A stretch of 64,000 nucleotides of DNA from Escherichia coli (GTDB lineage Bacteria; Pseudomonadota; Gammaproteobacteria; Enterobacterales; Enterobacteriaceae), in assembly GCF_030384885.1 (NCBI RefSeq), contig NZ_CP128613.1. One strand, written 5' to 3'. Below, in pieces: positions 55,901 through 58,900 of this stretch (position 1 is its first letter; every line of letters begins with the position of its first letter). A program made the position numbers.

Positions 55901-58900
55901 ACGCGCGAAGTGGCTGAAACTATCAGCAACGGCGAAGCCGGATGCTTTATGCACGGGCCAACCTTTATGGGCAATCCGCTGGCCTGCGCGGCAGCAAACG
56001 CCAGCCTGGCCATTATCGAATCTGGCGACTGGCAGCAGCAGGTAGCGACTATTGAAGCACAACTGCGCGAGCAACTGGCTCCTGCCCGTGACGCCGAAAT
56101 GGTTGCCGATGTGCGCGTGCTGGGAGCGATTGGCGTGGTCGAAACCACTCGTCCGGTGAATATGGCTGCGCTGCAAAAATTCTTTGTCGAACAGGGTGTC
56201 TGGATCCGACCTTTTGGCAAGCTGATTTACCTGATGCCACCCTATATCATTCACCCGCAACAGTTGCAGCGCCTGACCGCAGCGGTTAATTGCGCGGTGC
56301 AGGATGAAACATTTTTTTGCCAATAACGAGCAGTCAGCGTGAGGTTTTCTGGCTACACTTTCTGCAAACAAGAAAGGAGGGTTCATGAAACTCATTAGTA
56401 ATGATCTGCGCGATGGCGATAAGCTGCCGCATCGCCATGTCTTTAACGGCATGGGTTACGATGGCGATAATATTTCGCCGCATCTGGCATGGGATGATGT
56501 TCCTGCGGGAACCAAAAGTTTTGTCGTCACCTGCTACGACCCGGATGCGCCAACTGGCTCTGGCTGGTGGCACTGGGTAGTTGTTAACTTACCCGCTGAT
56601 ACCCGCGTATTACCGCAAGGGTTTGGCTCTGGTCTGGTAGCAATGCCAGACGGCGTTTTGCAGACGCGAACTGACTTTGGTAAAACCGGGTACGATGGCG
56701 CAGCGCCGCCGAAAGGCGAAACCCATCGCTACATTTTTACCGTTCACGCGCTGGATGTAGAACGTATTGATGTCGATGAAGGTGCCAGCGGCGCGATGGT
56801 CGGGTTTAACGTCCATTTCCACTCTCTGGCAAGCGCCTCGATTACTGCGATGTTTAGTTAATTGCTCAACCAGATGGCGCAATGCCATCTGGTATCACTT
56901 AAAGGTATTAAAAACAACTTTTTGTCTTTTTACCTTCCCGTTTCGCTCAAGTTAGTATAAAAAAGCTGAACGCGAAACAACAAAAGCCAATAATATCAAT
57001 GTGTTAAAATACATTTAGTCTAAAAAATAGACTGCATGATACTACAAAAAACAACATATCCAGTCACTATGAATCAACTACTTAGATGGTATTAGTGACC
57101 TGAGACAGAGCATTAGCGCAAGGTGATTTTTTGTCCTCTTGCGCTAATTTTTTGTCATCAAACATATCGCACTCCAGAGAAGCACAACACCTTGCAGTCC
57201 AGTGCAAAGCTTTGTGTACCAGAGTTTTCCTCATCAACTACCGCAAGTATCGATCGATTGAGACTTGGATGATAGACTTCATACCTTTCAGAACTCATTG
57301 ATTAAATAAATGTTAAATATATTTGCAAGGTACACCTCGATTGGTGTGCTGAACACACTTATACACTGGGTGGTTTTTGGTGTATGTATCTATGCCGCGC
57401 ATACCAATCAGGCTCTGGCAAACTTCGCAGGTTTCGTTGTGGCTGTGAGTTTTAGCTTCTTCGCGAATGCAAAATTCACATTCAAAGCATCAACTACAAC
57501 GATGCGCTACATGTTATATGTCGGGTTCATGGGAACACTCAGTGCTACTGTTGGATGGGCTGCTGATAGATGCGCACTTCCCCCGATGATAACTCTTGTC
57601 ACCTTCTCCGCCATCAGCCTGGTGTGCGGTTTCGTCTATTCAAAGTTCATTGTCTTTAGGGATGCGAAATGAAAATTTCTTTAGTCGTTCCGGTCTTTAA
57701 CGAAGAGGCCACGATACCTATTTTTTATAAAACTGTGCGCGAATTTGAAGGGCTTCAGCAGCATGAAGTCGAGATAGTCTTCATAAACGATGGCAGCAAA
57801 GACGCTACAGAATCAATTATCAACGAGCTTGCTGTTGCCGACCCGCTTGTTGTTTCGCTGTCGTTCACACGTAACTTCGGCAAAGAACCCGCCCTGTTCG
57901 CAGGTCTGGACCATGCTACCGGGGAGGCAATTATCCCGATTGACGTTGATCTGCAAGACCCTATCGAAGTTATTCCTCACTTGATAGAGAAATGGCAGGC
58001 CGGTGCAGATATGGTTCTGGCTAAACGCTCTGACCGCTCCACTGACAGCAGGCTGAAGCGTAAATCTGCTGAGTGGTTCTATAAGCTTCATAACAAAATC
58101 AGCAACCCTAAGATAGAAGAAAATGTTGGCGACTTCCGGCTCATGTCTCGCGAAGTAGTAGAAAACATTAAGCTCATGCCAGAACGAAACCTGTTTATGA
58201 AGGGTGTGCTGAGCTGGGTTGGTGGTCGAACCGATGTCGTAGAATATGCGCGAGCAGAACGAGTTGCAGGAAGCACAAAGTTCAATGGATGGAAGCTATG
58301 GAACTTGGCGCTGGAAGGGATCACTAGCTTTTCTACTTTCCCTTTGCGCATGTGGACTTATATAGGCCTGTTTGTGGCAACCTTATCATTCCTTTATGGA
58401 GCATGGATGATTGCTGATAAATTGATGTTTGGAAATAGTGTTCCAGGTTACCCTTCTATCATTGTATCAATATTGTTTCTTGGTGGAGTTCAGTTAATAG
58501 GCATAGGAGTTCTTGGAGAGTATATAGGAAGAATTTATGTTGAAGTTAAGCAGCGACCAAGATACATTCTAAAGGATAAGTAAAATGACTTTAAATATAA
58601 AAAAAACAGCCATATACATCATTGGATTTATATTCTTGACTTTCTTCTACGCCTCGATTTCAAAACAGATTTTGCCAAGTTCGGATGCTGTTTCTGGACT
58701 TCTTGAGGGTAAGGACATTGCGGACGGAAATTGGACGCTTAGTGGATGGTATCTCTCTACAGTATCATTCTATTTTACAGACATAATATGGTACGGGCTT
58801 GCTTCAAAGGTATTCTGGTACGGACAGTACCAAGCATACTGCATACCGGCAATTATGTATTCAATGGTTACATTGATGACATTTTATCTTTCAAAAGAAA

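What the first reader, a model, noticed from the sequence alone, without database searches (positions are those of the whole stretch)
57113..57158. tI/sib-like hairpin retained on the attR side
A 10-bp stem with a T-run lies ~160 bp beyond the att core, where lambda carries tI/sib. In the integrated state it is separated from int, and it would also terminate read-through from ybhB before the gtr operon.
Basis: partly seen in the sequence, partly recalled or inferred. Interest (0 to 1): 0.3.

Follow-up and report, generated by a model that had tools for sequence, protein, structure and literature searches.

The report
Lambda tI/sib terminator in prophage remnant
The hairpin is the well-known phage lambda tI/sib terminator and RNA-decay signal, sitting at the bio-side end of a 6.9-kb lambda-like prophage remnant in E. 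coli, so it is a real but ordinary, textbook feature.

Summary
It is followed by a T-run and folds at -18 kcal/mol (z = -5.3).

It is the orthologue of phage lambda tI/sib. Both arms and the T-run are identical to lambda, HK97 (whose record annotates this site as "sib retroregulation site"), 434 and HK106. Only the apical loop differs. It lies 153-195 nt from the centre of the att core, on the P-arm (attR) side, on the int-sense strand.

The window holds both att cores (56952-56966 and 63898-63912). They enclose only 6.9 kb: tI/sib, gtrA, gtrB, a third gene, tail-fibre fragments and a 5'-truncated int. There is no xis, pI, pL or N. Retroregulation of int therefore cannot operate in this element. 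It could operate in the intact 40.8-kb relative 042p1 of E. coli 042, which carries an identical hairpin.

Here the hairpin can act only as an intrinsic terminator for bioA-ybhB read-through ahead of the gtr operon. That role is correctly oriented and plausible, but untested.

The module occurs in 1802 of 5426 complete E. coli genomes. It is already known, and interest is low.

The parts
56385..56861 (+). ybhB, the host gene on the bio side; possible source of read-through transcription
   Evidence: Pfam PBP PF01161, E = 3e-42. Annotated ybhB in near-identical genomes.
56869..56893 (+). ybhB's own 3' hairpin (10-bp stem, poor U-run)
   Evidence: Fold of -18.3 kcal/mol, z = -3.85. The tail TATCACTT is not a canonical U-tract.
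56952..56966 (.). Lambda att core (attR = POB'), TTAGTATAAAAAAGC
   Evidence: Exact match to the core. Two copies in the window against 0.03 expected. Aligns with the lambda misc_recomb feature 27724-27738.
56967..57100 (.). P arm of attP, homologous to the lambda region carrying the Int arm sites 'int 1' and 'int 2'
   Evidence: Alignment A1. The block CAGTCACTATGAATCAACTACTTAGAT.GTATTAGTGACCTG differs at only one base among the window, lambda, HK97, 434 and HK106. Lambda annotation gives 'int 1' at 27583-27602 and 'int 2' at 27615-27634.
57101..57110 (+). 5' half of the lower (extended) stem, which pairs only in read-through transcripts
   Evidence: Read-through fold: 57101-57103 pair with 57158-57160, and 57104-57110 pair with 57150-57156.
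57112..57148 (+). tI hairpin: arms 57112-57122 and 57138-57148 around the apical region 57123-57137
   Evidence: Arms are identical to lambda 27578-27568 and 27553-27543.
57149..57160 (+). U-run (T5; T6 when 57148 is counted) and 3' half of the lower stem (TTTTTGTCATCA)
   Evidence: Homology in HK97, 434, HK022 and a Salmonella phage ends just after TTTTTTGTC.
57182..57217 (+). Second, weaker conserved hairpin box. It is shared with lambda, HK106, phi80 and 434, and with the Shigella Sf phages, where the SfII record annotates it as a putative terminator.
   Evidence: Alignments A2 and A3. SfII annotation. Pair counts: 81.7% of cells paired. Folds: window -12.9 kcal/mol (z = -1.0), SfII -18.9 (z = -3.9).
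57310..57672 (+). gtrA, first gene downstream of the hairpin
   Evidence: Pfam GtrA_DPMS_TM, E = 2e-13. Annotated as a GtrA family protein.
57669..58583 (+). gtrB (bactoprenol glucosyltransferase)
   Evidence: Pfam Glycos_transf_2, E = 2e-30. About 81% DNA identity to gtrAB of the Sf phages.
58585..60051 (+). Third gene of the gtr operon (488 aa), a candidate type-specific transferase
   Evidence: ORF list. No Pfam hit. It occupies the gtrC position seen in SfII. The literature names WbbG as the partner of GtrA and GtrB at this site in O44 strains (PMC10304059). Equivalence to WbbG was not tested.
62667..63824 (+). int, 98% identical to lambda Int from about residue 11. DNA homology starts at 62795. 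The native N-terminus, xis and pI are deleted.
   Evidence: BLASTP 341/349 identities, Pfam, DNA alignment A4.
63898..63912 (.). Second att core (attL = BOP'), next to ybhC

Best explanation
The hairpin is the orthologue of bacteriophage lambda tI/sib.

**Role in an intact phage (established lambda biology).** The site lies downstream of int, across attP.
- CII-activated pI transcripts stop at the hairpin and U-run. They end in a stable stem and allow Int synthesis.
- N-antiterminated pL transcripts read through. The sequences flanking the tI stem then pair, extending it into a long helix of about 25 bp. RNase III cuts that helix, exposing int mRNA to 3'-to-5' decay. This is retroregulation.
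- Integration splits attP, so sib ends up at attR, away from int. A prophage induced from pL can then make Int.

**Situation in this window.** The hairpin sits at attR of a 6.9-kb deletion remnant. The remnant keeps tI/sib, gtrA, gtrB, a third gene, tail-fibre fragments and a 5'-truncated int. It has lost xis, pI, pL and N. Retroregulation is therefore vestigial here.

**Remaining activity.** The only activity left is that of a strong intrinsic terminator on the + strand. It is placed to stop bioA-ybhB read-through about 155 nt before gtrA.

**Shown versus inferred.** Shown: homology, position, strand, fold and gene content. Inferred: termination and RNase III cleavage, from identity with the lambda element.
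For: **Homology and position**
- The segment is 87% identical to lambda 27470-27742 on the minus strand.
- Stem arms and T-run are identical in lambda, HK97, 434 and HK106.
- They are unchanged in 12 of 13 phages compared. Variation is confined to the apical loop and the flanks.
- HK97 annotates the homologous site as 'sib retroregulation site'. The 434 record annotates it as 'terminator'.
- The strand is the same as int. The hairpin lies 153-195 nt from the core centre on the P-arm side, as in lambda.

**Structure**
- The hairpin folds at -18 kcal/mol, z = -5.3.
- A read-through RNA adds 10 lower-stem pairs (57101-57110 with 57150-57160), giving -31.0 kcal/mol. A transcript ending in the U-run gives -19.6.
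- Lambda gives -28.6 and -19.8 for the same two forms.

**Remnant status**
- Both att cores lie in the window.
- int homology starts near codon 15, and no xis is present.

**Intact relative**
- Prophage 042p1 of E. coli 042 has int, xis, N, a cII homologue and Q. It carries an identical 64-nt hairpin region next to ybhB (PMC2808357).

**Literature on the mechanism**
- PMC5300877 and PMC2951348.
Against: - No transcript data exist for this locus, so termination and RNase III cleavage are inferred from sequence identity only.
- Rfam has no family for this element, so no curated model could be scored.
- The apical loop differs from lambda by one inserted U and one U>C. The effect is unknown, though JLK-2012 and Gally are identical to the window across their aligned 76 and 73 nt, which include the loop.
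- The original papers mapping the sib mutations were not available in the library. Their positions could not be checked against this sequence.
Confidence: 0.93

Rival explanations
1. **Exapted insulator.** The hairpin is kept in the remnant because it now serves the gtr O-antigen-modification operon. It would block biotin-regulated bioA-ybhB read-through, so that gtr is driven only by its own promoter. Retroregulation would be irrelevant.
For: - Orientation and position fit. The order is ybhB (+), its own hairpin with a poor U-run, tI, then gtrA 155 nt later.
- The layout int, attP, terminator, gtrABC also occurs in the Shigella Sf phages, with a different hairpin.
- 97 of 5426 complete E. coli genomes share this junction at 99% identity or more.
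Against: - The 97 junctions are nearly identical throughout, so conservation of the hairpin in them says nothing about selection.
- The hairpin is equally invariant in phages with no gtr operon, so its conservation is explained by the phage function.
- There are no expression data.
Confidence: 0.25
2. **Chance hairpin.** An AT-rich palindrome with no function that merely resembles a terminator.
For: The simple terminator scan did not flag it.
Against: - z = -5.3, and 0 of 200 shuffles fold as well.
- The arms are identical in 12 of 13 compared phages, while the flanking DNA diverges or changes completely.
- The scan's miss is explained by its limit on loop length.
Confidence: 0.01
3. **Bidirectional terminator.** It would also end leftward (window minus-strand) transcripts coming from the tail-fibre and late genes.
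For: The stem is a perfect palindrome, so it also forms on the minus strand. An A-run precedes it on that strand.
Against: On the minus strand the stem is followed by GCTCTGTCTC, not a U-run. In addition, the gtr operon on the opposite strand lies between the tail genes and the hairpin.
Confidence: 0.03

Closest known systems
Bacteriophage lambda tI terminator / sib retroregulation site (NC_001416 about 27,537-27,590, minus strand)
   Same: - Both 11-nt stem arms, the U-run and the flanking lower-stem sequences CAGAGC and TTTTTTGTCATC are the same.
- The distance from the att core, the P-arm side and the int-sense strand are the same.
- The predicted switch between the terminated fold and the read-through fold is the same.
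   Different: - The apical loop has one extra U and one U>C.
- The three lowest pairs of the extended stem use GAG, as in HK97, instead of lambda's GUA.
- Here it lies in a remnant without pL, N, xis or pI, followed by a gtr operon rather than ea59.
sib site of HK97 (annotated 21042-21091) and the tI terminator of phage 434 (annotated 24828-24869)
   Same: They are homologous sequences with identical stems.
   Different: In HK97 and 434 the homology ends right after the U-run. In the window it continues for about 65 nt, as it does in lambda, HK106 and phi80.
Putative rho-independent terminator between attP and gtrA of Shigella phage SfII (24720-24766)
   Same: It has the same architectural place: int, attP, terminator, gtrABC, all on one strand. 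After integration it lies between the host flank and gtrA.
   Different: It is not homologous to the tI hairpin. It corresponds instead to the window's second, weaker box at 57182-57217.
Prophage 042p1 (ROD15) of enteroaggregative E. coli 042
   Same: It has an identical 64-nt hairpin region and the same ybhB, attR, sib, gtrAB junction, at 99.0% identity over 1201 bp.
   Different: 042p1 is a full 40.8-kb prophage with int, xis, N, repressor, cII, Q, lysis and SfV-like tail genes. The window element has lost about 34 kb of this.

Membership tests
Lambda tI/sib retroregulator | Sequence homology to the lambda sib/tI hairpin | tested here: met
   Alignment A1. Both arms and the T-run are identical, and there are 2 differences in the loop. 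The 13-phage alignment agrees.
Lambda tI/sib retroregulator | Location on the P-arm side of the att core, just beyond Int arm site P1, on the strand that is sense for int | tested here: met
   The core is at 56952-56966 and the hairpin lies 153-195 nt from its centre. Window + strand equals lambda minus strand, and int is on +.
Lambda tI/sib retroregulator | Intrinsic-terminator anatomy: a stable stem followed by a U-run | tested here: met
   -18 kcal/mol, z = -5.3, and a T5-6 tail.
Lambda tI/sib retroregulator | A longer duplex forms only when the U-run and downstream bases are transcribed (the RNase III substrate) | tested here: met
   In silico, read-through RNA pairs 57101-57110 with 57150-57160, giving -31.0 against -19.6 kcal/mol. 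Lambda behaves the same way. Actual cleavage was not tested.
Lambda tI/sib retroregulator | Cis partner set: a complete int with pI, xis, and a pL-N antitermination system whose transcripts can reach sib after excision or in the free phage | tested here: not met
   The window element lacks xis, pI, pL and N, and int is truncated at its 5' end. The set is present in the intact relative 042p1. The hairpin is therefore a member by descent but cannot perform the family's function here.
Lambda tI/sib retroregulator | Termination of pI transcripts and RNase III-dependent decay of read-through int mRNA | not testable with these tools
   This needs transcript mapping or in-vitro RNase III assays.
Rfam-curated RNA families | A covariance-model match | tested here: not met
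   No match at E <= 1 in window 56500-57700 or in the lambda homologue. Rfam appears to hold no model for lambda tI/sib. The Rfam 'Sib' antitoxin RNAs are unrelated.

The most novel reading that the evidence does not exclude
The att-distal edge of the lambda integration module may carry two conserved RNA hairpins, not one. The first is tI/sib. The second is a box at window 57182-57217 (lambda about 27,470-27,506), shared with the thrW-integrating Shigella Sf phages, where it is the only hairpin between attP and gtrA. On this reading the shared box would be an undescribed functional element, either a back-up int terminator or an insulator for cargo genes. It would also be the homologous-recombination joint that fused a lambda-type att-sib module to an Sf-type gtr cassette. 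In remnants like this one, the pair would then be retained as an insulator for the serotype-converting operon.
Probability: 0.12. Interest if true: 0.3.

Novelty: already known. Interest (0 to 1): 0.1.

Why it matters
The practical value is for annotation. The hairpin marks the exact attR-side edge of lambda-type integration modules, and it is present in about a third of complete E. coli genomes (1802 of 5426). Here it shows that the gtr serotype-conversion operon sits behind a strong phage terminator, not directly behind the bio-ybhB operon. This instance changes nothing in our understanding of retroregulation.

Tried and rejected
1. **Consensus terminator scan.** It did not list the hairpin. 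This is an artefact of its 3-8 nt loop limit, not evidence against the hairpin.
2. **Rfam searches.** Neither the window region nor the lambda homologue gave a match, because no family exists for this element.
3. **Original sib papers.** The look-up of Schindler & Echols 1981 failed and two literature searches found no paper that maps the sib mutations. The positions of sib1-3 and hef13 could not be checked, so I rely on secondary descriptions and general knowledge.
4. **'Antisense RNA' in the DN1 / BL21(DE3) annotation.** It lies on the opposite strand just beyond tI. No Rfam support was found, and only about 65 nt of it is shared with the window, so I did not pursue it.
5. **CII-binding consensus in the second box.** TTGC-N6-TTGC is present in lambda and 434 on the opposite strand, and the 434 record annotates it. 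The window, HK106 and phi80 have CTGC and SfII lacks the motif, and I estimate about 1.5 chance matches per lambda genome. I rejected it as a conserved feature.
6. **Dam/OxyR phase variation of gtr, as in Salmonella.** There is only one GATC (57252) between ybhB and gtrA, so this is not supported.
7. **Bidirectional terminator.** There is no U-run on the minus strand, so this was rejected.
8. **Covariation in the tI stem.** None is possible, because the stem is invariant. Covariation in the second box is suggestive only, with 8 distinct sequences.

Full report
**Observation**

Reading window 56600-57700 shows the following, with positions:
- ATTAGCGCAAG at 57112-57122;
- a 15-nt apical region;
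- the exact complement CTTGCGCTAAT at 57138-57148;
- TTTTTGTC after that.

As RNA, the segment folds at -18 kcal/mol. Shuffles average -6.2 +/- 2.2 (z = -5.3), and 0 of 200 shuffles fold as well. Only four hairpins of comparable design occur on both strands of the whole window. The generic terminator scan missed it because that scan accepts loops of only 3-8 nt.

**Setting**

- The + strand carries bioA and then ybhB (56385-56861; Pfam PBP).
- The 15-bp lambda att core TTAGTATAAAAAAGC follows at 56952-56966.
- A second exact copy lies at 63898-63912. Two copies are found against 0.03 expected by chance.
- Between the two cores lie only 6.9 kb:
  - the hairpin;
  - gtrA (57310-57672);
  - gtrB (57669-58583);
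  - a 488-aa ORF with no Pfam hit (58585-60051);
  - on the minus strand, a tail-fibre assembly gene, a glycine-rich tail-fibre gene, a Mu gp48-like gene and a fragment of a DNA-circularisation gene;
  - on the + strand, an integrase (62667-63824).
- The integrase is 98% identical to lambda Int (341/349) from about residue 11 onward. DNA homology to lambda begins only at 62795.
- The first ~14 codons of int, the pI promoter and all of xis are therefore missing.

The junction next to ybhB carries the P arm, so it is attR. The junction next to int is attL.

**Identity**

A BLAST search of 56940-57320 against phage genomes matches lambda 27470-27742 on the minus strand at 87% identity, plus about 95 other lambdoid records. 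The window + strand thus equals the lambda leftward, int-sense strand.

In the alignment with lambda, HK97, 434 and HK106 (A1):
- the att core is identical in all five, and the P-arm block holding the Int arm sites differs at a single base;
- both stem arms and the T-run are also identical;
- the window differs from lambda only by one extra T and one T>C in the apical loop.

The lambda arms are at 27578-27568 and 27553-27543. The HK97 record labels the homologous 50 nt 'sib retroregulation site'. The 434 record labels it 'terminator'.

Across 13 phages the arms are unchanged in 12. These include HK022, phi80, BP-4795, an Stx1a phage, an ompW-integrating phage and a Salmonella phage. The ompW phage has one C.A mismatch. 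In HK97, 434, HK022 and the Salmonella phage, homology stops immediately after TTTTTTGTC. The hairpin is therefore the last conserved piece of the integration module.

**Mechanism**

What follows is established lambda biology, summarised in PMC5300877 and PMC2951348 and otherwise from general knowledge.
- pI transcripts of int terminate at tI and are stable.
- N-modified pL transcripts read through tI.
- The longer RNA forms an RNase III site, and its cleavage leads to decay of int mRNA from the 3' end.
- After integration sib is no longer downstream of int, so pL transcripts from an induced prophage yield Int.

The fold predictions fit this. A transcript ending in the U-run keeps only the tI stem, at -19.6 kcal/mol. 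A read-through RNA pairs 57101-57110 with 57150-57160 and extends the helix to span 57101-57160, at -31.0 kcal/mol. Lambda gives -19.8 and -28.6 for the same two forms.

Cleavage and termination themselves are inferred from sequence identity. They are not shown here.

**What it can do here**

The remnant has no pL, N, xis or pI, and its int has a replaced 5' end. Retroregulation is therefore moot in this element.

An intact version exists. E. coli 042 prophage 042p1 is 40.8 kb and carries int, xis, N, a repressor, a cII homologue, Q, lysis genes and SfV-like tail genes, with gtrAB at the very end. It has the identical 64-nt hairpin region next to ybhB. The window element is thus a deletion derivative. 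Strain 2013C-4282 carries a different, 12-kb derivative with an IS3 element in front of a truncated int.

The gtr genes at this site are reported to add the glucose side branch of the O44 antigen (PMC10304059).

The remaining plausible activity of the hairpin is intrinsic termination of + strand transcripts coming from bioA-ybhB. ybhB has its own 10-bp hairpin (56869-56893, -18.3 kcal/mol), but its U-run is poor. tI would therefore be the first canonical terminator before gtrA.

**Distribution**

- The 91-nt hairpin segment is found in 1802 of 5426 complete E. coli genomes, at 2369 places.
- The specific ybhB, attR, sib, gtrAB junction is found in 97 genomes.
- No phage record in the collection spans the tI-to-gtrA junction.

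**Side observation**

Downstream of tI the window continues to match lambda, HK106 and phi80 for about 65 nt. Within that stretch, a box at 57182-57217 is also homologous to the sequence between the thrW attP and gtrA of the Shigella phages SfII, SfIV, SfV and SfI. The SfII record calls that sequence a putative terminator.

From about 57222 to the gtrA start codon the window matches the Sf-phage gtr leader. The window is therefore a chimera whose crossover lies inside the shared box.

The box can form a 15-pair imperfect hairpin. On the alignment, 81.7% of cells are paired, against 22-58% in the slid controls, and three pairs show double changes. There are only 8 distinct sequences. The hairpin is strong in SfII (-18.9 kcal/mol, z = -3.9) and weak in the window (-12.9, z = -1.0). 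I treat this as a lead, not a finding.

**Verdict**

The observation and the main interpretation are right. The element is the textbook lambda tI/sib site, in a new but ordinary instance. Novelty: already known. Interest: low.

Noticed in passing
window 56952-63912: The 'prophage' at att-lambda is only a 6.9-kb remnant bounded by two intact 15-bp att cores. It holds gtrA, gtrB and a third gene, tail-fibre fragments, and an int whose first ~14 codons, pI and xis are deleted. It is a deletion derivative of a 042p1-like 40.8-kb prophage. Strain 2013C-4282 has a different 12-kb derivative with an IS3 element.
   Followed up: yes
window 57182-57217 (lambda NC_001416 about 27,470-27,506; SfII NC_021857 24,720-24,766): A second conserved hairpin box lies downstream of tI. 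It is shared between lambda-type phages and the thrW-integrating Shigella Sf phages, and the SfII record annotates it as a putative terminator. It is weak in the window and strong in SfII. Covariation is modest, from 8 distinct sequences.
   Followed up: partly
window 57155-57312: This is a mosaic joint. Positions 57155-57215 are identical to HK106 and phi80, and about 57222-57312 match the gtrA leader of SfII/SfIV/SfV/SfI. The crossover falls inside the box common to both lineages.
   Followed up: partly
L008 1501-1576 (JLK-2012) and L009 401-476 (BP-4795): A copy of the tI hairpin region, 98.7-100% identical to the window, lies between type III effector genes (espV or an avirulence gene, and nleA), away from int and att. 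The module has evidently been carried along with cargo genes.
   Followed up: no
L012 401-478 (PPompW / Stx2_14744): The ompW-integrating phages carry a G>A change in the 3' arm that creates a C.A mismatch in the tI stem. It resembles a natural sib-like mutation.
   Followed up: no
L005 1718-1879, minus strand (DN1 / BL21(DE3) annotation; lambda about 27,372-27,533, plus strand): An ncRNA labelled 'antisense RNA' is annotated on the opposite strand immediately beyond tI in a lambda-DE3 derivative. Rfam gives no support, and its origin is unclear.
   Followed up: partly
window 57240-57309: The segment upstream of gtrA is conserved with the Sf phages (ATCGATCGATTGAGACTTGGATGATAGACTTCAT...). It contains a possible extended -10 element (TGATAGACT). 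Only one GATC (57252) lies between ybhB and gtrA, unlike the multi-GATC Dam/OxyR phase-variation regions of Salmonella gtr operons.
   Followed up: no
window 56869-56893: ybhB ends with a 10-bp GC-rich hairpin (CCAGATGGCG.....UGCCAUCUGG) that lacks a canonical U-run. It may be a weak terminator or an mRNA-stabilising hairpin.
   Followed up: no
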